DNA from: a virus
Lineage: Duplodnaviria > Heunggongvirae > Uroviricota > Caudoviricetes
Virus record (IMG/VR): IMGVR_UViG_2541047719_000008
Strand: one strand, 5' to 3'
DNA length: 55,177 nt
Under the pieces are notes generated by a model that saw only the letters and a program-made list of their open reading frames with translations, made no database searches and was not told where the DNA came from. This document shows, in pieces, positions 25,730 to 37,491 of the stretch. The translations under genes and the position numbers were made by a program. Within the stretch, counting starts at the first letter, position 1. Each line of letters opens with the position of its first letter.

Positions 25730-25975
25730 ATGGGATTGTTTACGACCCGCCAGTTACTCGGTTATACCGAACAAAAAGTTAAATTTCGTGCGCTGTTTCT
25801 GGAGCTGTTTTTCCGCCGTACGGTGAATTTCCATACCGAAGAGGTGATGCTGGACAAAATTACCGGAAAAACGCCGGTGGCGGCCTATGTCTCCCCGGTT
25901 GTTGAAGGAAAAGTGCTGCGTCATCGTGGTGGTGAAACCCGCGTGTTGCGTCCGGGCTACGTCAAGCCGAAGCAC
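25730..25975 (+). pseudogene. E: Major capsid protein E, N-terminal fragment (interrupted by the inserted element)
   Basis: First ~82 codons match lambda gpE up to RPGYVKPKH, then the frame runs into unrelated sequence and stops at 26005. Confidence 0.85.
25965..25975. other. Left junction core repeat (attL-like) AGCCGAAGCAC
   Basis: 11-bp sequence at the point where E homology ends; an imperfect copy AGCCGAAACAC lies where E homology resumes (36698-36708). Confidence 0.55.
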
Positions 25976-26137
25976 TTAGCATGGCTTTCTGAGGCTTTCG
26001 TGTAGTTGCTGGTTTTTACACTTAATCTTTTGATAATAAAGAGTAAGTTTATCTGGCGCTTTCACTGGATTTTCCTCGTTATCTGTGTGTTGCAATCATC
26101 TCTGTATTGCAGCTTGTATTGCTTTTTGGGGCTAAAA

Positions 26138-27373
26138 ATGGCTGGCGAGAACAAACTGAGCGACAAAGCACTTAAAGGATATCTGGGGAAACCTAGAGAA
26201 AAGCAGATCACCATTGCTGATGGAAAGGGGCTTTCTATTCGTGTGAGTACCAAGGGGGCTGTGAGCTTTGTTTTCTTCTACAGGTTAGCAGGTGGCCGGG
26301 CTGCTCCGGTCTGGCTAACGTTGGGTAAATATCCTGATATGTCACTCAAACAGGCAAGGGAAAAGCGCGACGAGTGCCGTGGTTGGTTGGCTGACAAACG
26401 TGATCCGCGTATTCAGATTAAGATTCAGGCTGAAGAACGCTTAAAGCCGGTCACAGTGGAGGATGCACTAAATTACTGGTATGAAAATTACTGTAAGGTG
26501 CGTCGTAAAACTCATGCTGTAACGCTTGGCAGATTTCGAAAGCATATCTTTCCCTATATCGGTCATTTGCCCGTAAATGACACTCACCTATATGAATGGC
26601 TGGACTGTTTTGACCGAATTAAACGTAATGCACCAGTTATGGCGGCGTATGTTTTTTCTGACACTAAATTAGCTCTTCGTTTTTGTCGGGTACGCCAGTA
26701 CGCGACGTGTGATGCTTTAAAGGATTTGCGCATGAGTGATGTGGGGCAGATTGCAGGTAAGCGGGATCGGGTTCTGGATGAAGCCGAACTGGGCCAGCTC
26801 TGGAAGGCAATTTTTGTCGAGCCTGATTTAAAACTAATGTCTGAATACACGCGAAAAATGTTTGTGCTTTGTACAGTATTTGGATGTCGAATGAGTGAAG
26901 CCCGATTATCAGAATGGAGCGAATGGGATCTAGAAAGTTGGGTTTGGACTGTACCGAAAGATCACTCAAAAACTGGTGTTGAAATTGTCAGGCCAGTACC
27001 TGAAATTCTACGGCAGTGGGTAACGGATGTTCACGAAGAGACAAAACATACTGGTTATGTGCTGGGAAGTCTGCGAATTAGAGAAAGCGTAAGCAAGATT
27101 GGGGGGAAAATCGGTAAACGTTTGGGCCATGAAAAACAATGGTCACTACACGACCTTAGAAGAACGCTATCTACTCATCTAAGTGATCTCGGTGTTGAAT
27201 TTTATGTAGTAGAACAACTGTTAGGCCATGCGCTACCTGGCGTGGCAGGTGTTTACAACCGGAGTAAGTTTATGGCTAAAAAACTGGATGCTCTGGAACT
27301 CTGGACTACATATCTCAATAGCATCGCAGCTGCTGATTCAAAAGTGACAATCCTCAAACAAAAGGCTGGTTAG
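26138..27373 (+). CDS. int: Tyrosine integrase, P4-type
   Basis: N-terminal LSDKALKGYLGKP...GKGLSIRVS (P4-integrase N-domain) and C-terminal catalytic HDLRRT ... GH...Y motifs; start taken at MAGENK rather than the upstream ORF start at 26006. Confidence 0.85.
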   Translation: MAGENKLSDKALKGYLGKPREKQITIADGKGLSIRVSTKGAVSFVFFYRLAGGRAAPVWLTLGKYPDMSLKQAREKRDECRGWLADKRDPRIQIKIQAEERLKPVTVEDALNYWYENYCKVRRKTHAVTLGRFRKHIFPYIGHLPVNDTHLYEWLDCFDRIKRNAPVMAAYVFSDTKLALRFCRVRQYATCDALKDLRMSDVGQIAGKRDRVLDEAELGQLWKAIFVEPDLKLMSEYTRKMFVLCTVFGCRMSEARLSEWSEWDLESWVWTVPKDHSKTGVEIVRPVPEILRQWVTDVHEETKHTGYVLGSLRIRESVSKIGGKIGKRLGHEKQWSLHDLRRTLSTHLSDLGVEFYVVEQLLGHALPGVAGVYNRSKFMAKKLDALELWTTYLNSIAAADSKVTILKQKAG

Positions 27374-27374
27374 C

Positions 27375-27596
27375 ATGAAAAAAATGGCAATTGTTGATAA
27401 AAAGGGGCTGGAGTACATTCCTAACATTGACCGAATGATCCGTGAGAAAGAATGTCGGGAGCTAACCACTCTTGCGAACAGCACACGCTGGAAGCTTGAA
27501 AAGGAGGGGAAATTCCCCAAGCGAATCAAAATCGGATCTACGGCGGTGGCTTATAGACTCTCTGAGATTCAAGCTTGGATAAGAGGTGAATGGTAA
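27375..27596 (+). CDS. alpA: AlpA-family transcriptional regulator/excisionase
   Basis: 73 aa; REKECRELTTLANSTRWKLEKEGKFPKRIKIG...AYRLSEIQAWI matches the AlpA pattern; directly follows int. Confidence 0.75.
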   Translation: MKKMAIVDKKGLEYIPNIDRMIREKECRELTTLANSTRWKLEKEGKFPKRIKIGSTAVAYRLSEIQAWIRGEW

Positions 27597-27622
27597 GTTA
27601 GGGAGGTATTCCTCCCTATATC

Positions 27623-28306
27623 TTACAGGAAATTTTTTAAATCAGGGTTTTTTCCAAATGCGCTCTTATAATATACTGTTGCAATCTCGTTAAAAATAGT
27701 TTTTATATCATCGGTAACCACTATTGTTGCTACGCGCAAATCTTTTTGATATTCATTTAAATCTGGAGGGGTATAGTCCAATAGCGTTGATTTATCCAAG
27801 ATTAAATGTTCTAACATGGCATAGCGCTCAATCAATGTTTTATAAAAATGATATTGATTTTCACTGTTAGCATGTGCACAGTTTATTGCAAGTAAATACG
27901 TTATTTCATTATCTAGATGTGCACGGACAAGGCTTGTATAGGTTTTTTTACGATCTAGATCAAAGGGATGGTATCCAGCATTTTCATCAATGAACTTCAA
28001 TAGATGATATAATATTCTGAAGTAGCTTCCAAAAACAGCATCATGATTGTGCATCAGTGTATTAGTGTCTTTTAAAGAAACCAATCCATTCATCATTTTA
28101 TTAATTAACTCTGAGTAATTTGATTTTTTTCTAAGATCATTTAGAGCATTGTTATGTTGAGATAACATGAGAGAAAATGTTGATTCAAAAGATGATTGCT
28201 TTTTAGCAATTAATGCAACTAACACTGCTGTGCAAGTCCCGAGTGCCACGAAGAAATTTATAATGTTTGATGCAGTGAATACAGCATCGTCAGGAGTTGG
28301 AGTCAT
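27623..28306 (-). CDS. AT-rich cargo gene: hypothetical membrane-anchored protein, candidate abortive-infection/defence factor
   Basis: 227 aa on the opposite strand to int-alpA; one N-terminal hydrophobic helix; markedly AT-rich compared with its neighbours; no confident family assignment. Confidence 0.5.
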   Translation of the reverse strand: MTPTPDDAVFTASNIINFFVALGTCTAVLVALIAKKQSSFESTFSLMLSQHNNALNDLRKKSNYSELINKMMNGLVSLKDTNTLMHNHDAVFGSYFRILYHLLKFIDENAGYHPFDLDRKKTYTSLVRAHLDNEITYLLAINCAHANSENQYHFYKTLIERYAMLEHLILDKSTLLDYTPPDLNEYQKDLRVATIVVTDDIKTIFNEIATVYYKSAFGKNPDLKNFL

Positions 28307-28338
28307 TTGAATATCCTATTCAATAAAAATTAAAAAAA

Positions 28339-28533
28339 TTAGCCTTTAGGTTCTATACCTTTACGGCGAAGCTCAGCACGAACTAATTCTTTAATCCAAT
28401 TGGCCAAGCTCATTCCTTCCTGAGCTGCTGATTCAGCCATCTGTTCTTTGAGTTCAGGATTGATTCGGATCTGAAACGCAGGGGCTTTGCCGGCTCCTTT
28501 TGGCTGCTTATCTCTTTGAATTGTAGTTGACAT
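28339..28533 (-). CDS. Ribbon-helix-helix (CopG/Arc-type) DNA-binding protein
   Basis: 64 aa; APAFQIRINPELKEQMAESAAQEGMSLANWIKELVRAEL is a classic RHH beta-strand plus two helices. Confidence 0.65.
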   Translation of the reverse strand: MSTTIQRDKQPKGAGKAPAFQIRINPELKEQMAESAAQEGMSLANWIKELVRAELRRKGIEPKG

Positions 28534-28578
28534 GTGTGTACCTATTGCTTAGCATCAGTGTTGAATAGGTACACACAT
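28532..28578. promoter_or_regulatory. Perfect 15-bp inverted repeat (candidate operator) at the RHH gene start
   Basis: ATGTGTGTACCTATT ... 17 bp ... AATAGGTACACACAT, overlapping the RHH start codon, in the divergent intergenic region. Confidence 0.5.
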
Positions 28579-28669
28579 TAACATGATGTTATACCTATAA
28601 ACAACGCCCTAGGGTGCTCGCAACACACCTAGGGCGTCTAACCACAAACCGTTAACTGGAGTAACGACT

Positions 28670-29035
28670 ATGGCTGGAACACAGCATACCCAAACTCACC
28701 CTAAATTTATATACATCTTTCTGGCGCTACATCGCGATCGCATAGCAGATGGAGCAACTACGGTACATGTAGCCGCTGACACGCTGGTTGATGCGCGCAA
28801 GATGGTTAAGGAGATGGGCTATACTGCGGCTTTCTGGAAAGGGCGGGAAGAAAACACGCTGTTTATTCAGAAATGTGAAAACAATTTCATCTGGCGTTTT
28901 ATCGCCCTGAGTACGGCACAACCGCGCGTGATTACCATCGAGGCCACCAGCGAACAGGAAGCCCGCCAGCAATCCCCAACTGGCTGCGTGATGATATTCG
29001 CCGCCCGTATTCGTCAGGAGGTGTGCCATGAATGA
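28670..29035 (+). CDS. Hypothetical protein (first gene of the rightward operon of the element)
   Basis: 121-aa ORF; no motif recognised; true start may be internal. Confidence 0.4.
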   Translation: MAGTQHTQTHPKFIYIFLALHRDRIADGATTVHVAADTLVDARKMVKEMGYTAAFWKGREENTLFIQKCENNFIWRFIALSTAQPRVITIEATSEQEARQQSPTGCVMIFAARIRQEVCHE

Positions 29036-29252
29036 TCTTTATTTTAAAGTGCTGACACATGCTGAAAACGCGCTCGTTTGTGGCAAAAATATGCGAGAAA
29101 TCTTATCAACCTGGCTTGATGGGACAACAAATGCGGAACACGATGAACGGGATGCTAATTTAGCTGGAGCGTTAATTACGTTACTTGATCCTGTCATCAA
29201 AGAGCTGGATGAAGCTATAAAAATACACGACCAGAGCTATACCGGAGAATAA
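29028..29252 (+). CDS. Hypothetical protein
   Basis: 74-aa ORF overlapping the upstream stop. Confidence 0.4.
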   Translation: MNDLYFKVLTHAENALVCGKNMREILSTWLDGTTNAEHDERDANLAGALITLLDPVIKELDEAIKIHDQSYTGE

Positions 29253-29255
29253 AAA

Positions 29256-29543
29256 ATGAAAAATAAATTTTCTGGCTTTATTGCCAGCGGTCAAACTCAT
29301 TCAAAAATCAGCCTTGGGGATATTTTCAAAGATAGCTATGGCTATCGGGTAAAGATTATTTCGGTTGATGATCGTCGTGTCTCTTATTTGCGTGATGGTT
29401 ATGATTTTGAATGTGTTATGCCGCGTCAGCAGTTCGAAAGAGATTTCATTCTGGTAAAAAATTGCAAGACAGATAATCAGAGGCGTGCCGCAGGCTATAT
29501 CCGTAAAATTCGGGCAATGTTAGTTGCCGGAGGTAACAAATGA
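29256..29543 (+). CDS. Hypothetical protein
   Basis: 95-aa ORF immediately preceding and overlapping the primase start. Confidence 0.4.
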   Translation: MKNKFSGFIASGQTHSKISLGDIFKDSYGYRVKIISVDDRRVSYLRDGYDFECVMPRQQFERDFILVKNCKTDNQRRAAGYIRKIRAMLVAGGNK

Positions 29544-31360
29544 AACGTGCTCCGAACTTAAAATACCAACCGCGCGACAAAATGACGGAAGTCATCATTT
29601 TTGCTGGCAGTGATGCCTGGAGCCATGCAAAAGAATGGAATGAATGGGCAGGTAAGCATATTGCAGCAGATGATACACCACCAGTCATTCTGGGTACGGA
29701 ACAACTGGAAAACCTGGATGATATGCAAATTATCGATGAAGGCCGTCATTATGTGCGTGTTTATCGTGCCGGAAAGATTGCAGAGAAAAGTCTGACGAAG
29801 GTTGCGACATTACTTGCTATTGCAGGCGTAAAGGAAGCACGTTGTTACCGTAGCTTTGTTGATCGAGAGCCTGAAGACTGGACTCCGCGCCTTGTCGGCC
29901 TAAAAGCTGAAGCGGAGCATGGGGAAAGTCTGGTGATTGAACTGCCAGTGAAGAAGGCAGAGCGCAAAAATGACGAGCGTGCTTCATCTTTGGCGTTGAA
30001 TCAGATGGGGGCCAGCCAGCGCGGTGAAGTTCTCCTTGCACATTACGGCGGCGAACTGGCAATCAATGCCGACTCTGACACCGTTCATCATTACAACGGC
30101 GTTGTATGGGAGCCGGTTCAGGATAAAGAGTTACAGCGTGCTATGGCGCAGATTTTCATTGATGCGGAGATCAGCTATTCGCAGAACGCCATTAAATCGG
30201 CGGTAGATACCATGAAGTTAAGTTTGCCTGTAATGGGGAATACAGCCCGTAACCTGATTGGATTCAGTAACGGGGTATTTGATACCAGAACTGGTAATTT
30301 TCGGGAGCATAACAAAAACGACTGGTTGTTAATTGCCAGTGAATTACCTTTCAGCCCACCAGCAGAGGGGGAAACGCTGGCAACACATGCGCCGAATTTC
30401 TGGAAGTGGTTGCGCCGTTCGGTGGCTGAGAATGACCGCAAGGCAGATCGCGTACTGGCGGCATTATTCATGGTGCTGGCGAACCGGTACGACTGGCAGT
30501 TATTCATTGAGGTAACAGGGCCGGGGGGAAGTGGTAAAAGTGTGATGGCGGAGATTTGCACCATGCTGGCGGGTAAGGCGAATACAGTATCAGCAAGCAT
30601 GAAGGCGCTGGAAGATGCAAGGGAACGTGCGTTAGTGGTTGGCTTTTCGCTGATTATCATGCCGGATATGACCCGCTACGCTGGTGATGGGGCAGGGATT
30701 AAGGCCATTACAGGCGGTGACAAGGTGGCAATTGACCCGAAACACAAAGCCCCCTATTCAACGCGTATTCCGGCAGTAGTGCTGGCGGTTAACAATAACG
30801 CCATGTCATTCAGTGACCGCAGCGGGGGGATCTCACGTCGTCGGGTGATATTCAATTTTTCGGAAGTTGTACCGGAGAACGAACGCGATTCGATGCTGGC
30901 GGAAAAAATAGAAGGTGAGCTGGCGGTAGTGATTCGCCATCTGCTTACACGGTTTGCTGATCAGGACGAAGCCAGACGCCTGTTATATGAGCAGCAGAAA
31001 TCTGAAGAAGCACTGGCGATAAAGCGAGAGGGGGATTCGCTGGTGGACTTCTGCGGCTATCTCATGGCATCGGTAATGTGTGATGGCCTGTTAGTGGGTA
31101 ATGCTGAAATTGTGCCATTCAGCCCACGCAGGTATCTCTATCATGCCTATCTGGCTTATATGAGGGCACATGGGTTTGGTAAACCTGTAACACTGACGCG
31201 CTTCGGTAAAGATATGCCGGGGGCAATGGCGGAATATGGCAGGGAGTATATGAAACGGAAAACGAAGCACGGTTTGCGTTCAAACGTGACACTGACGGAG
31301 GAATCAGAAGACTGGATGCCATCATGTGTATCGGTCACTAATGACGATAGCAAAAATTAA
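29540..31360 (+). CDS. Primase/helicase replication initiator (P4-alpha / PICI Pri-Rep type)
   Basis: 606 aa with Walker A GPGGSGKS in the C-terminal half (D5/P4-primase-type NTPase); followed directly by an iteron array. Confidence 0.8.
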   Translation: MKRAPNLKYQPRDKMTEVIIFAGSDAWSHAKEWNEWAGKHIAADDTPPVILGTEQLENLDDMQIIDEGRHYVRVYRAGKIAEKSLTKVATLLAIAGVKEARCYRSFVDREPEDWTPRLVGLKAEAEHGESLVIELPVKKAERKNDERASSLALNQMGASQRGEVLLAHYGGELAINADSDTVHHYNGVVWEPVQDKELQRAMAQIFIDAEISYSQNAIKSAVDTMKLSLPVMGNTARNLIGFSNGVFDTRTGNFREHNKNDWLLIASELPFSPPAEGETLATHAPNFWKWLRRSVAENDRKADRVLAALFMVLANRYDWQLFIEVTGPGGSGKSVMAEICTMLAGKANTVSASMKALEDARERALVVGFSLIIMPDMTRYAGDGAGIKAITGGDKVAIDPKHKAPYSTRIPAVVLAVNNNAMSFSDRSGGISRRRVIFNFSEVVPENERDSMLAEKIEGELAVVIRHLLTRFADQDEARRLLYEQQKSEEALAIKREGDSLVDFCGYLMASVMCDGLLVGNAEIVPFSPRRYLYHAYLAYMRAHGFGKPVTLTRFGKDMPGAMAEYGREYMKRKTKHGLRSNVTLTEESEDWMPSCVSVTNDDSKN

Positions 31361-31373
31361 ACTTATGGAATAA

Positions 31374-31596
31374 CTGTTCACCACTGTTCACCCTGTCATA
31401 AATATCTTTTATATCAGTATATTATAGGGTGAACAGTTATTTATGAACTGTTCACCAAACTATTCACTGTTCACCTTTTTGATTGTTTATTGAGCTTCAA
31501 GGGTGAACAGTGGTGAACAGTTGGTGAATAGTTTTTGTGAAACTGTTCACCCATTAACATTATGAATTAAAAGAGAAAATATCAAAAGGTGAACAG
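31374..31596. repeat. Iteron array, candidate replication origin of the element
   Basis: At least nine copies of the 9-mer CTGTTCACC/GGTGAACAG in both orientations (e.g. 31374, 31384, 31428, 31448, 31467, 31502, 31512, 31543, 31588) in AT-rich non-coding DNA. Confidence 0.7.
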
Positions 31597-31647
31597 GTGA
31601 AGGGTTAAAACGCAAAAATTTTAATTTACTGCTGTGAGATAAAGCCT

Positions 31648-31893
31648 ATGACAGCGAAGCACACAAAAAAATCACAATCGCACGCCCTTGATTTGACGGA
31701 ACACTGGTTAAGGGTGTCGATAAAAATCATCGACCGCAACGCCGGGGAAGGATACGCGAAAGCACATCCCGAACTGATTAGCGCATTCATGACAACGGCG
31801 GCTGCAAACTTTGCCACTCTGACCGAACGGGAGATTGCTGAAGCGGAGGAAGTGGCAACAATCAATATTAAGTCCGGAGAGCAGGCAGCATGA
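31648..31893 (+). CDS. Hypothetical protein
   Basis: 81-aa ORF between the origin and ssb. Confidence 0.4.
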   Translation: MTAKHTKKSQSHALDLTEHWLRVSIKIIDRNAGEGYAKAHPELISAFMTTAAANFATLTEREIAEAEEVATINIKSGEQAA

Positions 31894-32339
31894 CGGCGCA
31901 AATATCAGTTTACGGGCGGTTGGTGGACGACCCGCAGACAAAACAGACCAGCAAGGGCACCCCCATGACGCTGGCGCGTATGGCGGTATCACTGCCCTGC
32001 AGTCAGTCGGATGACGGTCAGGCGACGATGTGGTTATCTGTCCTGGCGTTTGGCAGACAAGCCGACGCGCTGGCAAAGCATCACAAAGGCGAACTCCTGA
32101 GCGTGGCGGGTAATATGCAGGTGAGCCAGTGGACTGGACAGAACGGTGAAACGCGGCAGGGCTGGCAGGTTATCGCAGACAGCGTAATCAGTGCGCGAAC
32201 GGTGCGACCGGGCGGCAAAAAAGGTCAACAGGGTCAGGCTACTGACGCACTGAACAGAGCAAAACAACAGGCAGATCAGCAAGGAAGCCATCCACCAGTG
32301 GGAGATAATGAACAATGGGGAGATGATATTCCGTTTTAA
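31890..32339 (+). CDS. ssb: Single-stranded DNA-binding protein
   Basis: OB-fold-like N-terminus, Gly/Gln-rich linker and the canonical acidic tip DDIPF at the C-terminus. Confidence 0.75.
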   Translation: MTAQISVYGRLVDDPQTKQTSKGTPMTLARMAVSLPCSQSDDGQATMWLSVLAFGRQADALAKHHKGELLSVAGNMQVSQWTGQNGETRQGWQVIADSVISARTVRPGGKKGQQGQATDALNRAKQQADQQGSHPPVGDNEQWGDDIPF

Positions 32340-32550
32340 ATATTGCCAATAAAAAAGGCCGGAAAAAAATAAATTTTCCGGCATGCTACATAAATCCCGA
32401 CCAAAGGGAGTGAAGATATTAACACTAATTATCCGCGCTGAAGTTGTTATCCCAAAACTTTATACAACATTGCACTCGGTTGCATGTATTCGCATGACAA
32501 ATATCGGTGATAGCATATATCCACAATTATTTTTAATGAATGCAAAGAGG

Positions 32551-33597
32551 ATGCGTATGGTTGATTTATATTCGCCTACCCAGCTTGTACAGGTGGTTAA
32601 TGCTGTAGATGTACAAAAACAACTAAATGCGTTGTTTACCAGTTTGTTTTTTACTCGCTCGGTAATGTTTGAATCGCGCGATATTATTCTTGATACAATC
32701 GACGATCCAAATATCCCAATTGCAGCGTTTTGTTCTCCTATGGTGGGTAGTAAAGTTTCACGTGACGAAGGGTACGAATCAAAAACAATTCGTCCAGGCT
32801 ATATGAAGCCGAAAAGCAGCATTGATCCAAATAAGTTAGCTGTGCGCCCTGTTGGTGTATCACCTGAGCAATACAATGCTTTTGGAGCGCGTAATATTAA
32901 AGTTAAACAGGCGATTGTAAATCAGGCTAAAGCTATTCGTGCACGTATTGAATGGCTTGCCGTTCAGGCAATCACAACGGGGAAAAATATCATTGAGGGC
33001 GATGGTATTGAACGTTATGAGCTGGACTGGAATATTAAACCACAAAATATCATCACTCAGTCTGGCGGTGCTGAGTGGTCAGGTAAGGATAAAGAAACTT
33101 TTGATCCAAATGATGATATTGAGAGCTACGCAGAATTTAGTGAGGGCGTCACTAATATTATCATTATGGGCGGTAATGTATGGAAGAAATACCGTTCATT
33201 CAGAGCGATAAAAGAGGCTCTGGATACCCGTCGTGGTTCTAATTCCGAACTGGAAACGGCCCTTAAAGACCTTGGTGATTCGGTGAGTTTTAAAGGGTAT
33301 ATGGGCGATGTTGCGATTGTTGTTTACAGCGGGCGTTATACCGACGAGGACGGAACAGAAAAACATTTCCTTGATCCTGATTTGATGGTGCTTGGCAATA
33401 CGGCTCTTCAGGGGATTGTCGCCTATGGCGGTATTCAGGATCCGGAGCTAATCCGAATGGGGCTGACTAAAGCCGAACTTGCACCGAAAAACTATATTGT
33501 GCCTGGTGATCCGGCTATTGAATATGTGCAGACACATTCAGCACCACAGCCAATACCGGCCCGCATCAATCGTTTTGTTACCGTTCGCATTGGCTAA
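32551..33597 (+). CDS. Major capsid protein, lambda E-like paralog encoded by the inserted element
   Basis: Full-length homology to the split prophage E gene (RPGYMKPKS vs RPGYVKPKH; LDTRRGSNSELETALKDLG; YSGRYTDEDG; GDPAIEY). Start at MRMVDLY with AAAGAGG RBS; the tool ORF starts at 32383. Confidence 0.8.
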   Translation: MRMVDLYSPTQLVQVVNAVDVQKQLNALFTSLFFTRSVMFESRDIILDTIDDPNIPIAAFCSPMVGSKVSRDEGYESKTIRPGYMKPKSSIDPNKLAVRPVGVSPEQYNAFGARNIKVKQAIVNQAKAIRARIEWLAVQAITTGKNIIEGDGIERYELDWNIKPQNIITQSGGAEWSGKDKETFDPNDDIESYAEFSEGVTNIIIMGGNVWKKYRSFRAIKEALDTRRGSNSELETALKDLGDSVSFKGYMGDVAIVVYSGRYTDEDGTEKHFLDPDLMVLGNTALQGIVAYGGIQDPELIRMGLTKAELAPKNYIVPGDPAIEYVQTHSAPQPIPARINRFVTVRIG

Positions 33598-33606
33598 GGG
33601 GGAGCA

Positions 33607-33948
33607 ATGGCTACTCATTACACTGAACTCATGGCTGGCACTGAAGCACTGGTGACTACGCTGGGGATATTTTCAGCTAATAAAGGGGTAATTCCTGCAT
33701 TTACGCCACTGATGCAGGAAGATGCAACAGGTGCACTGGTAGTATGGGATGGTTCGAGCGTAGGTAAAGCGGTTTATGTTTCCGCTGTACAAATCGACAC
33801 CGCGAAAAAAACACAGGCTCAGGTCTATAAGACAGGTGTCTTAAATGTTGATGCTCTGAACTGGCCTGAGTCTGTTAAAGAACTGTCAGTAAAGGTTGCA
33901 GCGTTTGTTGGCTCAGGTATTTCTGTTCAGCCGCTGGCTCGTGTGTAA
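33607..33948 (+). CDS. Head decoration protein, lambda D-like paralog encoded by the inserted element
   Basis: 113 aa sharing TPLM, VVWDG, YK(T/S)G, NWPESV and AF(V/A)GS blocks with the prophage D protein. Confidence 0.75.
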   Translation: MATHYTELMAGTEALVTTLGIFSANKGVIPAFTPLMQEDATGALVVWDGSSVGKAVYVSAVQIDTAKKTQAQVYKTGVLNVDALNWPESVKELSVKVAAFVGSGISVQPLARV

Positions 33949-33959
33949 AGGGGGATACA

Positions 33960-34343
33960 ATGCAGAATGATTACAATGACCTTAAGCCAATTGCCGAAAT
34001 GATGTACCCGAATCAAGCTGTAGAGGAATTAAAAGCTATCGCTGACAAAATGTGTTTAAGCGAGCGCCTTGTTGATATGAATCAGGTGATGGAAATTACA
34101 ACCCTGAGTCGTCGTACACTGCTAAACCTTGAGGCTAGTGGAGAGTTCCCGGAGCGTGTGCAGGTTACGGAAGGGCGTAAGGCCTGGTATTTAAGTGAAG
34201 TGATCGACTGGATAAATAATATTCCTCGCGCTTCTGAATATTGCCGCGTACCTGTCCCAAAAAAGCCAGATGCGGCGCTATGCCTCAAGATTGAGCGTGT
34301 ACGCCGCAATGCACGGGATGGTCGCTATAAGCTGATTGGTTGA
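33960..34343 (+). CDS. AlpA-like HTH DNA-binding protein
   Basis: MEITTLSRRTLLNLEASGEFPERVQVTEGRKAWYLSEVIDWI matches the AlpA-type HTH; precedes the element's cos site. Confidence 0.5.
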   Translation: MQNDYNDLKPIAEMMYPNQAVEELKAIADKMCLSERLVDMNQVMEITTLSRRTLLNLEASGEFPERVQVTEGRKAWYLSEVIDWINNIPRASEYCRVPVPKKPDAALCLKIERVRRNARDGRYKLIG

Positions 34344-34369
34344 TGAAATTAGGGCCTGCTCTGGCTGGC

Positions 34370-34434
34370 GGGTCCTTTCCGGCGATCTGACAGGCTACGG
34401 GGCGTCAGGCGCGCGGGTTTTCGCTATTTATGAG
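34370..34434. other. Second, element-borne cos site with variant cosN (GGGCGTCAGGCG)
   Basis: GGGTCCTTTCCGGCGATCTGACAGGCTACG + GGGCGTCAGGCG + CGCGGGTTTTCGCTATTTATGAG aligns to the prophage cos at 19350-19416, with five substitutions in the 12-nt cohesive-end segment. Confidence 0.7.
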
Positions 34435-34535
34435 CATTTTAAGGGGACTGGTGGTGGTTTTGTTGTTCGCTATATCTGTATGAATAATAAGAGAAAAATA
34501 CAATCAATACACCAACCTGAAACAGTAATTAAGTT

Positions 34536-35087
34536 GTGGTATCAATGAAATTACACCTGATGAACAAAAAAAACATGGCAAAAAGTTGCCGTGTAAGCGC
34601 CACTGCGTTCGATAAGTGGGGAGTGATTCCCGTCGAGCGTAAGGGCCGTGAGGCGTTCTATGATGTTGCCAGTGTAATAGATAATCGGGTTAACAATGCA
34701 ATCAGCCAGATTACAAACGAAACGGGCGATATTGATGACGATGAACTTTTACGCGTCAGGATCAGATTACTGACAGCACAGGCAGAGGCGCAGGAGCTTA
34801 AAAACGAGCGCGAACGCGGCGACGTTATTGATACAGAGTTTTGTATGTATGTTCTTTCCAAACTGGCGAGTCAGATTTCATCTATCATGGACAGCCTGCC
34901 GCTTACCATGCAAAGGCGCTTCCCACAGATGACTCCGGCTATGCTGGATGGACTTAAAAAGGAAGTGGCTAAAGCCTGTAATGCCAGTGCCGGCGTTGCT
35001 GACAACCTCCCACAGATACTGGCTGATTATCTGATGGAAAGTACAGGAAACGTACCGGATAAGTTGCAGCTGAATAAGGATAAGTAA
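34536..35087 (+). CDS. Terminase small subunit, Nu1-like paralog encoded by the inserted element
   Basis: SATAFDKWGVIPVERKGREAFYDV ... YVLSKLASQISSIMDSLPLTMQRRFPQMTP parallels the prophage Nu1 (SVQAFDKWGVPPVERRGREVFYDV ... ALSKLAMALSSTLDSIPLSMQRQFPDLTP). Confidence 0.8.
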   Translation: MVSMKLHLMNKKNMAKSCRVSATAFDKWGVIPVERKGREAFYDVASVIDNRVNNAISQITNETGDIDDDELLRVRIRLLTAQAEAQELKNERERGDVIDTEFCMYVLSKLASQISSIMDSLPLTMQRRFPQMTPAMLDGLKKEVAKACNASAGVADNLPQILADYLMESTGNVPDKLQLNKDK

Positions 35088-35098
35088 CGTAGTACGCT

Positions 35099-35374
35099 AT
35101 GACTGAATCCGAACTACTGAAAGTAATCTGCCATGCTGGTGGAGTCAGCCACCAGCATGACGAACAGGCCACGCAGCCGGGCAGTGTCACCGCTGAAAAT
35201 TACGCTCGTGTGGTTGCTGAGGTTATGTGGCGTGACGGTATAGAACTGAACGGACAGGATTGCTTAGTCATCCGCACCAAAGTGCTGGCTATACTGGCAG
35301 CTAGGCGGAGGCAGGGACAACGCCAGAACGTTGCATCGTACCAGTGGAAGAAGCCTGACAGACTGCGGCGATAA
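35099..35374 (+). CDS. Hypothetical protein
   Basis: 91-aa ORF after the Nu1-like gene; no motif recognised. Confidence 0.35.
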   Translation: MTESELLKVICHAGGVSHQHDEQATQPGSVTAENYARVVAEVMWRDGIELNGQDCLVIRTKVLAILAARRRQGQRQNVASYQWKKPDRLRR

Positions 35375-35776
35375 CTCTTTGATTTTCTCGACGGCCCCAA
35401 AATGGGCCTTACCATAGCCAGCTAATAAATGAGCAAGCCTCAAAAGTGAGGTTTGTGGCCGTTTGGCCTATTCATATGCTAACTCGTTGATATTCCTGAC
35501 GACGCAAATTTACGCCTTGTGGCTGGTAGTCGAATTGCAAATTTGCAACTCGACTATGAAACTACAGGTAGTTTGGGTAGTAAAAGCAACACACTGATTT
35601 TGGGGCTTCTTCGCGATACCTAATATTATGGTATCGGTGGAAGAGATATCGTTTCTCATAGGTTAGCACCGAGGGCGGAGTTCCGCCCTCATCGAAAAAT
35701 TGCTTACGAGTCGTCAAAATAAATTAATCGACTGAGTATAATGATTAACTAATTGCTCGTGTTACTTCATTATACG

Positions 35777-36538
35777 TTATTTCCCATCTTTAAGGTTTAA
35801 CCAAGTGTTAATTAAAAAAAGAGCCATTGAGCCTGATAAATTTACTGCAAGTTCGGCATGCCTTGGGGATGGCTTAATTGATGAGCTGTTCGTTCCATGT
35901 GCATCACCGAGTTTATTACGAAGAGTACCTAACCCATTTACAACTGCAGAACAACCGCCGAGAATTTGTTTGAAGATATTTTCAGTATGTTGGTCGGCAG
36001 ATAGGTTAAGTTCTTTTGAAAGAGTTTTATAAAGCTCTGACATTTCAATATTTTTATTATTATACTGAATGCCCATATCATCAAGAATGTGTTTGCAAAC
36101 TGTTTCAAGAAGTGTTCTTGCGGAGGTTATCGCACCATCCGGATCTGTATGGCGCCGTTCAAGTGCTTTTATCCAAACGGCGTGGACTCCATCCTCGTTA
36201 AACTTTCTTAATACATCAGATATGTCTTCATCCGCTGGAGCTTTATTTTTCCCTTCTAGATAGTCCAGCATCGGCTGAAATGCCTTATAAATCAAATCTC
36301 TCCGGGGGGCATACTTTTCAGTCTTTTTTATAAATCCCCAAAATTCTTTTAGTGAGCGATTAGTTCTCACAAACTCTGGTAATAGCTGATGTAAAGGAGG
36401 ATTTTGTAAGAAATATGTTCTTAGAAGCAAATAATCATTATTAGCTTCATCCTGGGCTCCTGTAGCTCTTGCAATTAGTATGTTTTGAAGCGCTACTGCG
36501 CGCTCTAGGTCATTTTGAAGGGTATCTATAATATTCAT
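35777..36538 (-). CDS. AT-rich cargo gene: Abi_C-like (abortive infection C-terminal domain) protein
   Basis: 253 aa; C-terminal GTLRNKLGDAHG resembles the conserved R-N-x-x-G-x-A-H-G signature of Abi_C domains; opposite strand and AT-rich. Confidence 0.5.
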   Translation of the reverse strand: MNIIDTLQNDLERAVALQNILIARATGAQDEANNDYLLLRTYFLQNPPLHQLLPEFVRTNRSLKEFWGFIKKTEKYAPRRDLIYKAFQPMLDYLEGKNKAPADEDISDVLRKFNEDGVHAVWIKALERRHTDPDGAITSARTLLETVCKHILDDMGIQYNNKNIEMSELYKTLSKELNLSADQHTENIFKQILGGCSAVVNGLGTLRNKLGDAHGTNSSSIKPSPRHAELAVNLSGSMALFLINTWLNLKDGK

Positions 36539-36697
36539 AACAAATCTTTATTCACTTCATTTGTGGGTTGATAATTGAATGGTTTGTACATTGATTTCTG
36601 TGTATTGCAGTGTGTATTGCAACATAGCCATTCAGGTAGAGATTATGCTCTATTTTTCCTCTTATATCATTCACATACTTACACCATTGACTCATGT

Positions 36698-36708
36698 AGC
36701 CGAAACAC
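36698..36708. other. Right junction core repeat (attR-like) AGCCGAAACAC
   Basis: Imperfect copy of the left junction 11-mer, at the exact point where the E reading frame resumes. Confidence 0.55.
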
Positions 36709-37491
36709 GAATTTAATTACCAGCAGGCGGTTGAGCGCCTTCCTGGTGAAGATCCATCTCAACTGAACGATCCGGCTTACCGCCGTCTGCGTATCATTAC
36801 CGATAACCTCAAACAGGAAGAGCACGCGATTGTCCAGGTGGAAGAAATGCAGGCGGTAAATGCTGTGTTGTATGGCAAATACACCATGGAAGGAGACCAG
36901 TTCGAGAAAATTGAGGTCGATTTTGGCAGGTCGACGAAGAATAACATCACACAGGGTAGCGGTAAGGAATGGTCAAAACAGGATCGTGACACGTTCGATC
37001 CTACACATGATATTGACCTTTACTGCGACCAGGCCAGCGGTCTTGTGAATATTGCCATCATGGACGGTACCGTCTGGCGTCTGCTGAATGGTTTTAAGCT
37101 GTTTCGCGAAAAACTGGATACCCGTCGCGGTTCAAATTCACAACTCGAAACGGCAGTGAAAGATCTGGGCGCAGTGGTGTCCTTCAAGGGGTATTACGGC
37201 GATCTGGCTATTGTTGTGGCGAAAACGTCTTATATAGCAGAAGACGGTATCGAAAAACGTTATCTTCCAGATGGCATGCTGGTCCTGGGGAATACTGCTG
37301 CAGATGGGATCCGTTGTTACGGAGCCATTCAGGATGCGCAGGCGTTTTCCGAAGGTGTGGTGGCTTCTTCCCGTTATCCGAAACACTGGCTGACGGTGGG
37401 GGATCCTGCCCGTGAATTTACCATGACGCAGTCCGCACCGCTGATGGTGTTGCCGGACCCGGATGAGTTTGTGGTGGTACAGGTGAAATAA
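36700..37491 (+). pseudogene. E: Major capsid protein E, C-terminal fragment
   Basis: Frame opens after a TAG at 36697-36699 and reads PKHEFNYQQAVERLPGEDP ... DPAREFTMTQSAPLMVLPDPDEFVVVQVK, matching lambda gpE from about residue 80 to the end. Confidence 0.85.

What the first reader, a model, noticed from the sequence alone, without database searches (positions are those of the whole stretch)
35777..36538. Second AT-rich cargo gene at the other end of the element, with an Abi_C-like motif
This 253-aa minus-strand ORF sits immediately inside the right junction. Its C-terminus contains GTLRNKLGDAHG, which resembles the conserved R-N-x-x-G-x-A-H-G signature I associate with Abi_C (abortive infection C-terminal) domains. 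With 27623-28306 it gives the element one defence-like cargo gene at each end.
Basis: partly seen in the sequence, partly recalled or inferred. Interest (0 to 1): 0.6.

Follow-up and report, generated by a model that had tools for sequence, protein, structure and literature searches.

The report
HEPN (Abi_C) defence gene on satellite
The gene is a real, intact member of the Abi_C/HEPN family of ribonuclease-type anti-phage proteins, carried as swappable cargo at the edge of a known kind of phage satellite that sits inside its helper prophage's capsid gene; it is a sound but fairly ordinary finding.

Summary
Observation confirmed. Window 35777-36538 (-) is an intact 253-aa ORF. It contains GTLRNKLGDAHG, has 38% GC (prophage flanks 55-56%), and starts 160 bp inside the right junction.

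Residues 1-97 form a separate helical bundle with no Pfam or specific structural match. So this is not AbiJ in the strict sense, and it carries no extra effector domain.

The gene has no conserved neighbour in 80 species-level loci.

The surrounding element is a known helper-embedded PICI ('11capE' type). In sister elements the same slot holds a second Abi_C allele, GmrSD_N+HEPN, a TIR protein or DUF3892.

Most likely mechanism (inferred, not tested): a stand-alone HEPN RNase that aborts infection by competing phages. RefSeq already calls it 'abortive infection family protein'. Verdict: new member of a known kind, modest interest.

The parts
35777..36538 (-). Abi_C/HEPN family gene, 253 aa plus stop; RefSeq WP_001021158.1 'abortive infection family protein'
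   Evidence: ORF; Pfam Abi_C E=1.3e-23; RefSeq annotation
36248..36538 (-). N-terminal helical domain, residues 1-97; conserved within the subfamily, no known family or specific fold match; presumed regulatory or sensor module (inference)
35780..36241 (-). HEPN domain, about residues 100-253; wider than the Pfam Abi_C match at 168-243
35894..35920 (-). Catalytic-type HEPN motif R207-N208-K-L-G-D212-A-H214-G215
   Evidence: Coordinates; D212 and H214 invariant, R207/N208/G215 >=90% conserved in 71 homologues; same spacing as SadR RNEYGDAH, whose R, N and H are essential (PMC13590631)
36642..36670 (-). Weak sigma-70-like promoter candidate upstream of the gene (ATGATA-17-CATAAT, 9/12)
   Evidence: the number of such sites in the region equals the shuffle expectation, so this is only a candidate
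36698..36708 (.). attR core (AGCCGAAACAC) inside the split lambda-E-like major capsid gene
   Evidence: capsid reading frame resumes '..PKHEFNYQQAVERLPGEDP'; RefSeq annotates the capsid fragments as pseudogenes
25965..25975 (.). attL core (AGCCGAAGCAC) ending the N-terminal capsid fragment (...PGYVKPKH)
25976..36697 (+). Helper-embedded PICI satellite (11capE type) that carries the gene: integrase, HTH, putAbiC(-), Icd-like, DUF4222, D5 primase, SSB, own capsid E and D homologues, AlpA-like, Nu1-like TerS, 91-aa ORF, Abi_C(-)
   Evidence: described as a class in PMC10111431
27623..28306 (-). Second reverse-strand cargo gene at the other end of the element (putAbiC family)
   Evidence: Pfam PF16872 E=2.8e-16; replaced by other genes in sister elements
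36599..36621 (.). Doubled TGTGTATTGCAG motif between the gene and attR; a GTATTGCA copy also lies near attL (26104). Probably integrase arm sites, not an RNA antitoxin array
   Evidence: PMC10111431 mentions a doubled DNA motif unique to HE-PICI attP

Best explanation
The gene encodes a stand-alone, two-domain protein. The C-terminal half is a HEPN-fold domain of the Abi_C type with an intact R-N-x3-D-A-H ribonuclease motif. A family-specific N-terminal helical bundle (residues 1-97) is presumed to hold the nuclease in check or to sense infection. The gene is carried as interchangeable cargo in the att-proximal slot of a helper-embedded PICI satellite and is transcribed against the satellite's main operons. 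Most likely the protein is made in the lysogen, is activated when a competing phage infects, and degrades RNA. That aborts the infection and protects the clonal population, and with it the satellite and its helper prophage. Shown here: family membership, fold, conservation of catalytic residues, absence of a partner gene, and the cargo-slot context. Inferred: RNase activity, dimerisation, infection-triggered activation, and the anti-phage phenotype.
For: - Family: Pfam Abi_C 83 bits against a cut-off of 24. PADLOC AbiJ profile E=2e-21 over its C-terminal part.
- Catalytic residues: D212 and H214 invariant; R207, N208 and G215 >=90% conserved in 71 homologues that are down to 35% identical.
- Precedent: SadR is a 266-aa Abi_C protein with RNEYGDAH. 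It degrades ssRNA and blocks phages and plasmids, and it loses both activities in R225A, N226A and H232A (PMC13590631). AbiJ of Lactococcus is the founding Abi_C abortive-infection protein (PMC13064643).
- Stand-alone unit: no neighbour family is shared by more than 3 of 80 species-level loci within 3 kb. The small ORFs next to close homologues have no counterpart here.
- Context of close homologues: the att-proximal end of PICI/cfPICI-like satellites next to fis; a SIR2-containing island; beside a type I restriction-modification system and a P2-like prophage.
- Cargo slot: in sister HE-PICIs the same slot carries a second Abi_C allele, GmrSD_N+HEPN_RiboL-PSP, TIR_2-DUF3298 or DUF3892.
- Published precedent for the location: PICI anti-phage genes are reported next to the attachment site (PMC10085698).
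Against: - No experiment exists on this protein or this subfamily; activity and phenotype are extrapolated from SadR and AbiJ.
- Sequence relation of its N-terminal half to SadR was not tested (no SadR sequence was available).
- The N-terminal domain differs from AbiJ: the PADLOC AbiJ profile matches only positions 162-274 of 281.
- The promoter evidence is no better than chance, so expression in the lysogen is assumed.
- A crude search for integrases and restriction genes around distant homologues found few (8 of 80). That test was insensitive, but it means a general link to mobile or defence islands is shown only for the enterobacterial relatives.
- How a lone, constitutively made RNase avoids killing its host is unexplained.
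Confidence: 0.7

Rival explanations
1. It is the toxin of an addiction (toxin-antitoxin) module. Its role would be to stabilise the satellite-prophage composite by killing cells that lose it, not to defend against phages. An antitoxin would be encoded elsewhere or as an RNA.
Against: No MNT or other conserved neighbour exists in this locus or in 80 others. No Rfam hit was found. The only tandem repeat is a 1.9-copy 12-mer that also occurs at attL and fits integrase arm sites. The slot is filled by unrelated defence-type genes (TIR, GmrSD_N+HEPN) in sister elements.
Confidence: 0.1
2. It is a satellite life-cycle factor that interferes with the helper phage, for example by cutting helper late transcripts to favour satellite packaging. 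It would not be a defence against unrelated phages.
For: Satellites commonly encode helper-interference functions. The gene sits beside the satellite's packaging genes (Nu1-like TerS, own capsid and decoration genes).
Against: It is transcribed opposite to all core satellite genes. It is absent from about three quarters of elements with the same integrase: 41 of 175 genomes. Full-length homologues at 50-71% identity occur in many phyla, on plasmids and in loci with no shared neighbouring gene.
Confidence: 0.08
3. The HEPN domain is not a general RNase. It would be either a narrow-specificity nuclease (for example tRNA anticodon cleavage, as recalled for some HEPN defence proteins) or a non-catalytic nucleotide- or protein-binding module.
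For: HEPN domains include non-catalytic members (sacsin and Roquin are among the top structural hits) and highly specific nucleases. HepS, a prophage HEPN protein solved bound to the lambda J tail tip, is also a hit.
Against: The full R-N-x3-D-A-H motif is under strong conservation, which argues for catalysis. The closest characterised relative by motif, SadR, degrades ssRNA and total RNA non-specifically in vitro.
Confidence: 0.1

Closest known systems
SadR of Staphylococcus aureus (Abi_C-domain defensive RNase; PMC13590631)
   Same: Single gene of similar size (266 vs 253 aa). Abi_C domain near the C-terminus. Motif RNEYGDAH against RNKLGDAH, with identical spacing (five residues between N and H, the modal class in that paper). 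No recognised N-terminal Pfam domain (the 'no NTD' type, 2,257 of 2,815 Abi_C proteins). Located next to a mobile-element integration site.
   Different: Gram-positive host and SCCmec/rlmH context rather than a phage satellite. Sequence relation of the N-terminal halves was not tested here. RNase, dimer and defence data exist for SadR only.
AbiJ (Abi-859) of Lactococcus lactis; AbiJ models of PADLOC and DefenseFinder
   Same: C-terminal Abi_C/HEPN domain (PADLOC AbiJ E=2.2e-21). Single-gene abortive-infection system.
   Different: The match covers only profile positions 162-274 of 281. No AbiJ_NTD family is detected in the N-terminal half. The mechanism of AbiJ itself is still unknown (PMC13064643).
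Taranis (Vibrio cholerae integron cassette with an Abi_C domain; bioRxiv 10.1101/2024.07.02.601686)
   Same: Abi_C-containing single-gene anti-phage system in Gammaproteobacteria, found near integrases in Klebsiella and Burkholderia.
   Different: The Taranis N-terminus is reported as distantly related to AbiJ_NTD5; this protein shows no such match. No direct sequence comparison was possible.
HEPN/MNT toxin-antitoxin pairs and the type III system AbiV
   Same: HEPN fold and Rx4-6H type motif.
   Different: No MNT gene, no conserved partner and no RNA repeat array. This protein also has an extra 97-residue N-terminal domain.
Defence cargo of PICI and P4-like satellites (hotspots next to att/int; PMC9122126, PMC10085698) and the HE-PICI 11capE (PMC10111431)
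   Same: The element is an 11capE-type helper-embedded PICI: same integrase (98.9% DNA identity to NRG 857C), same capsid-E insertion site and same gene order. The gene occupies an att-proximal variable slot, as reported for PICI defence genes.
   Different: The HE-PICI paper describes the non-hypothetical genes as unidirectional. In its main text, 'abortive' does not occur and 'defense' occurs only in a cited title. The type element carries GmrSD_N+HEPN_RiboL-PSP in this slot, not Abi_C.

Membership tests
Pfam Abi_C (PF14355) | Score above the curated gathering threshold over most of the model | tested here: met
   83.3 bits against 24; model positions 2-82 of 83; residues 168-243. All 71 aligned homologues also match.
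HEPN superfamily | All-alpha HEPN helical-bundle fold | tested here: met
HEPN superfamily | Rx4-6H catalytic motif, conserved across relatives | tested here: met
   R207-NKLGDA-H214 (six residues between R and H). H214 invariant and R207 >=90% conserved in 71 sequences.
HEPN superfamily | Ribonuclease activity dependent on the motif; dimeric active site | not testable with these tools
   Needs biochemistry.
AbiJ sensu stricto (L. lactis Abi-859 architecture) | Full-length similarity, including an AbiJ-type N-terminal domain | tested here: not met
   The PADLOC AbiJ profile is matched only at positions 162-274 of 281. The N-terminal 128 residues hit no Pfam family at E<=10.
SadR-type Abi_C defensive RNase | R-N-x-x-G-D-A-H motif in an Abi_C domain of a ~250-270 aa single-gene protein | tested here: met
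   RNKLGDAH at 207-214 of 253 aa, against RNEYGDAH at 225-232 of 266 aa.
SadR-type Abi_C defensive RNase | Homology over the N-terminal half; anti-phage and anti-plasmid phenotype | not tested
   No SadR sequence could be obtained (the paper's supplements are not held). The phenotype needs experiments.
HEPN/MNT type II/VII toxin-antitoxin | Adjacent minimal nucleotidyltransferase antitoxin gene | tested here: not met
   The nearest ORFs are unrelated and non-conserved. No neighbour family is shared by more than 3 of 80 loci.
Type III toxin-antitoxin (AbiV/AbiF/ToxIN-like) | Tandem-repeat antitoxin RNA next to the toxin gene | tested here: not met
   The only array is 1.9 copies of a 12-mer that also occurs at attL. 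Rfam gives no relevant hit. Homologue loci have different upstream sequences.
Satellite (PICI) defence-cargo hotspot | Position next to the att site in which related elements carry different, mostly defence-type genes | tested here: met
   Of 175 E. coli genomes with this integrase, the junction slot holds this Abi_C in 41, GmrSD_N+HEPN_RiboL-PSP in 31, TIR_2-DUF3298 in 16, a hypothetical gene plus DUF3892 in 16, and a second Abi_C allele in 4.

The most novel reading that the evidence does not exclude
The conserved 97-residue N-terminal helical bundle is a previously undescribed sensor or auto-inhibitory domain. It defines a distinct Abi_C subfamily that has spread horizontally across many phyla. 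In a helper-embedded satellite it would be tuned to spare the helper lambdoid phage while firing on competitors, perhaps by sensing phage recombination proteins (single-strand annealing proteins), which are the escape loci reported for AbiJ and SadR. That would make this a tractable E. coli/lambda model for how lone HEPN nucleases are triggered.
Probability: 0.2. Interest if true: 0.5.

Novelty: new member of a known kind. Interest (0 to 1): 0.3.

Why it matters
The finding adds a clean Gram-negative example, approachable with lambda genetics, to the Abi_C/HEPN defence family. That family's only mechanistic data found here come from one S. aureus protein. The finding also shows that helper-embedded PICIs have att-proximal slots that exchange defence-type cargo (Abi_C, TIR, GmrSD_N+HEPN), as ordinary PICIs and P4-like satellites do. 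So a satellite lodged inside a prophage capsid gene may also arm the lysogen against other phages. None of this overturns current ideas. Its value is as annotation and as a candidate for routine phage-challenge testing.

Tried and rejected
- **Partner gene or RNA.** The small ORFs flanking homologues have no counterpart here. The neighbour clustering was negative. Rfam and TRF were negative.
- **Promoter and terminator.** The scan is no better than shuffled sequence.
- **Link to mobile or defence genes around distant homologues.** Single-sequence tblastn was too insensitive to conclude anything.
- **The search for related loci.** The 71-sequence alignment failed because it has no sufficiently conserved stretch. 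The search was redone with 12 closer sequences.
- **SadR sequence.** An attempt to retrieve it from the paper's supplements failed. The reference for 'Abi_C in Klebsiella PICIs' could not be retrieved either.
- **Phage collection.** There are no close homologues in deposited phage genomes: best 56% identity over 58% of the protein, in unannotated faecal contigs.

Full report
**1. The observation**

The ORF exists exactly as described: window 35777..36538, minus strand, ATG start, 253 aa.
- The string GTLRNKLGDAHG is at residues 204-215. The core RNKLGDAHG maps to 35894-35920.
- The gene is AT-rich. GC is 0.382 and GC3 is 0.287, against 0.446 for the whole inserted element and 0.548/0.565 for the prophage DNA on either side.
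- The right junction is 160 bp upstream of the start codon. The left and right att cores are AGCCGAAGCAC (25965-25975) and AGCCGAAACAC (36698-36708). They split a lambda-E-like major capsid gene after '...PGYVKPKH'.

**2. What the protein is**

Domain and family matches:
- Pfam gives one significant family, Abi_C (PF14355): E=1.3e-23, 83.3 bits against a gathering score of 24, over residues 168-243.
- The PADLOC AbiJ profile matches at E=2.2e-21, but only through its C-terminal part (profile 162-274 of 281).
- NCBIfam has nothing above threshold.
- RefSeq already annotates the protein (WP_001021158.1) as 'abortive infection family protein'. The window is identical to E. coli K56-43-un, NZ_CP053079.

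Size and conservation of the family:
- The word-indexed search returned 5746 proteins at E<=0.001.
- The exhaustive search returned 3440 50%-identity clusters, 437 of them below 1e-30.
- Most hits are ~250 aa and align end to end. A minority share only residues ~95-250, or carry ~130-residue N-terminal extensions.
- In a 71-sequence alignment reaching 35% identity, P54, E145, D212 and H214 are invariant. R207, N208, G215, R128, D132, P133, G135, A136, T138, R141 and K149 are at least 90% conserved.

Structure:
- The AlphaFold2 model is confident (pLDDT 93.8, pTM 0.81) and all-alpha.
- HEPN proteins from defence and toxin systems follow: AbiA 10.0, SO_3166 HepN toxin 9.7, LsoA 9.0, HEPN/MNT toxin 8.3, Csm6 8.1, prophage HepS 8.0 and AbiV 6.9.
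- R207-x6-H214 fits the HEPN Rx4-6H motif.

The N-terminal domain:
- Residues 1-97 fold confidently when modelled without the C-terminal half.
- They match no Pfam family even at E<=10.
- So there is no second effector domain. The protein is not an AbiJ in the full-length sense.

**3. Experimental precedent**

- A 2026 paper characterises SadR, a 266-aa S. aureus Abi_C protein with the motif RNEYGDAH.
  - It degrades ssRNA and total RNA, and runs at about twice its monomer mass on native PAGE.
  - It lowers plating of several phages by 10-10,000-fold and reduces plasmid transformation.
  - It loses RNase and defence activity in R225A, N226A and H232A (PMC13590631).
- The motif here, RNKLGDAH, has the same spacing. 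In that paper's scheme the protein falls in the largest class, 'no NTD' (2,257 of 2,815).
- AbiJ of Lactococcus is the founding member, but its mechanism is still unknown (PMC13064643).
- Escape mutants for both AbiJ and SadR map to phage single-strand annealing proteins. This is a lead for the trigger, not evidence about this protein.
- An Abi_C cassette from the Vibrio cholerae integron (Taranis) also defends against phages. The same preprint states that Abi_C systems were identified in Klebsiella PICIs.

**4. Is it a stand-alone unit?**

- In this window the gene has no co-oriented neighbour. Upstream lies the att junction; downstream lies 400 bp of non-coding DNA.
- The small ORFs next to close homologues have no counterpart here.
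- In 80 loci from different species (50-71% identity), no ORF family within 3 kb is shared by more than three loci.
- Rfam finds nothing relevant. The only tandem repeat is 1.9 copies of TGTGTATTGCAG, a motif also present at attL and best read as integrase arm sites.
- So there is no MNT-type antitoxin and no type III RNA array.

**5. Context**

The surrounding 10.7-kb element carries, in order:
- integrase and an HTH regulator;
- putAbiC (reverse strand);
- an Icd-like gene, DUF4222, a D5-type primase and SSB;
- its own capsid-E and decoration-D homologues;
- an AlpA-like regulator, a Nu1-like small terminase and a 91-aa ORF;
- Abi_C (reverse strand).

This is the published 'helper-embedded PICI' of the 11capE type.
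- It is integrated in the capsid gene of a lambdoid helper prophage (PMC10111431).
- Its integrase is 98.9% identical in DNA to that of the type strain NRG 857C.
- That paper calls the non-hypothetical genes unidirectional. In its main text 'abortive' does not occur, and 'defense' occurs only in a cited title.

Among 5426 complete E. coli genomes, 175 carry this integrase. The exact Abi_C gene is in 41 of them, always 100% identical and always abutting the split capsid gene. It occurs inside helper prophages with different alleles of the portal, protease and FI genes.

What the slot between the AlpA-like gene and attR holds:

| Cargo at the capsid junction | Genomes |
|---|---|
| This Abi_C allele | 41 |
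| GmrSD_N/DUF262 + HEPN_RiboL-PSP (type element NRG 857C) | 31 |
| TIR_2-DUF3298 protein | 16 |
| 228-aa hypothetical + DUF3892 | 16 |
| Second Abi_C allele (57% aa identity to this one) | 4 |

The remaining genomes with this integrase, about 67, were not sampled. The slot after the integrase is also variable: putAbiC here, and a 178-aa hypothetical, DUF2971 or a 467-aa hypothetical elsewhere.

Close homologues in other Enterobacterales occupy comparable positions:
- the att-proximal end of PICI/cfPICI-like satellites next to fis in Klebsiella and Enterobacter;
- a SIR2-containing island in K. pneumoniae;
- beside a type I restriction system and a P2-like prophage in Serratia.

This agrees with the published statement that PICI anti-phage genes sit next to the attachment site (PMC10085698). 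Full-length relatives at 50% identity or more occur in Proteobacteria, Desulfobacterota, Chloroflexota, Acidobacteriota, Campylobacter, Cyanobacteria, Planctomycetota and candidate phyla, and on plasmids. That spread points to frequent horizontal transfer.

**6. Mechanism**

Best-supported reading (confidence about 0.7): a stand-alone HEPN ribonuclease, produced in the lysogen, that is activated on infection by a competing phage and degrades RNA to abort that infection.
- Shown: family, fold, conserved catalytic residues, lack of a partner gene, and the cargo-slot context.
- Inferred: RNase activity, dimerisation, the trigger, the role of the N-terminal domain and the phenotype.

Rivals:
- an addiction toxin (0.1);
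- a helper-interference factor of the satellite (0.08);
- a narrow-specificity or non-catalytic HEPN protein (0.1).

The evidence for and against each is in the rival section of this report.

**7. Verdict**

- The gene is a new, uncharacterised member of a known and already annotated family, on a known type of element.
- Two modestly new points emerge: this Abi_C subfamily has its own conserved N-terminal domain, and helper-embedded PICIs have defence-type cargo slots.
- Interest: 0.3.

Noticed in passing
window 25965-36708: The whole insert is a helper-embedded PICI of the published 11capE type. It splits the lambda-E-like major capsid gene of a lambdoid prophage (fragments 25730-25975 and 36700-37491) and carries its own capsid-E (32383-33597) and decoration-D (33607-33948) homologues. 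It is found in 175 of 5426 complete E. coli genomes by integrase, and inside helper prophages with different alleles of the portal, protease and FI genes.
   Followed up: partly
window 34344-36697; L021 20031-22406; L022 20508-22550; L023 8824-10971; L024 8894-10843: The slot between the AlpA-like regulator and attR is a cargo hotspot. It holds this Abi_C (41 genomes), GmrSD_N+HEPN_RiboL-PSP (31), TIR_2-DUF3298 (16), a hypothetical gene plus DUF3892 (16), or a second Abi_C allele at 57% aa identity (4). About 67 further elements were not sampled. The HE-PICI paper does not discuss this.
   Followed up: partly
window 27374-28660; L021 13035-13571; L022 12985-13806; L025 1715-3118: A second variable slot lies just after the integrase and HTH genes. 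It holds putAbiC (PF16872) here, and a 178-aa hypothetical, a DUF2971 protein or a 467-aa hypothetical in sister elements.
   Followed up: partly
window 34536-35374: The Nu1-like small terminase gene and the following 91-aa ORF (no family hit) are annotated only in this Abi_C-carrying variant (L001, L002), not in the other five sister elements inspected. They may have arrived with the Abi_C gene as one block, or may mark a variant that redirects packaging.
   Followed up: no
window 26104-26111, 36599-36621: GTATTGCA-containing repeats lie close to both att cores (doubled as TGTGTATTGCAG x1.9 at the right end). They are probably integrase arm-type sites and may correspond to the 'doubled DNA motif unique to HE-PICIs' mentioned in PMC10111431.
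   Followed up: partly
window 35375-35776: A 400-bp non-coding gap lies between the convergent TerS operon and the Abi_C gene. It contains a perfect GC-rich hairpin (GAGGGCGGAGTTCCGCCCTC, 35671-35690) with no T-run on either strand, and a palindrome TTGCAAATTTGCAA (35535-35548). There is no Rfam match and the function is unknown (terminator, cos-related or regulatory).
   Followed up: partly
L013 5408-7765: A metagenome contig places a P4-type integrase directly next to the 68%-identical Abi_C homologue and the packaging genes of a capsid-forming PICI-like element. In the genome locus L012, fis occupies that side instead. This fits sequencing of an excised circular or tandem form, with the Abi_C gene adjacent to attP.
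   Followed up: no
L026-L105: Full-length homologues keep 50-71% identity across very distant phyla, including Campylobacter, Chloroflexota, Acidobacteriota, Cyanobacteria, Planctomycetota and candidate phyla radiation MAGs. This implies unusually wide and recent horizontal spread of a single-gene unit.
   Followed up: partly
L008 7912-9930: In K. pneumoniae the 86%-identical homologue lies 70 bp downstream of a co-oriented 672-aa gene with no Pfam hit, in an island that also has a SIR2_2 protein and IS fragments. Whether that gene works together with Abi_C there was not examined.
   Followed up: no
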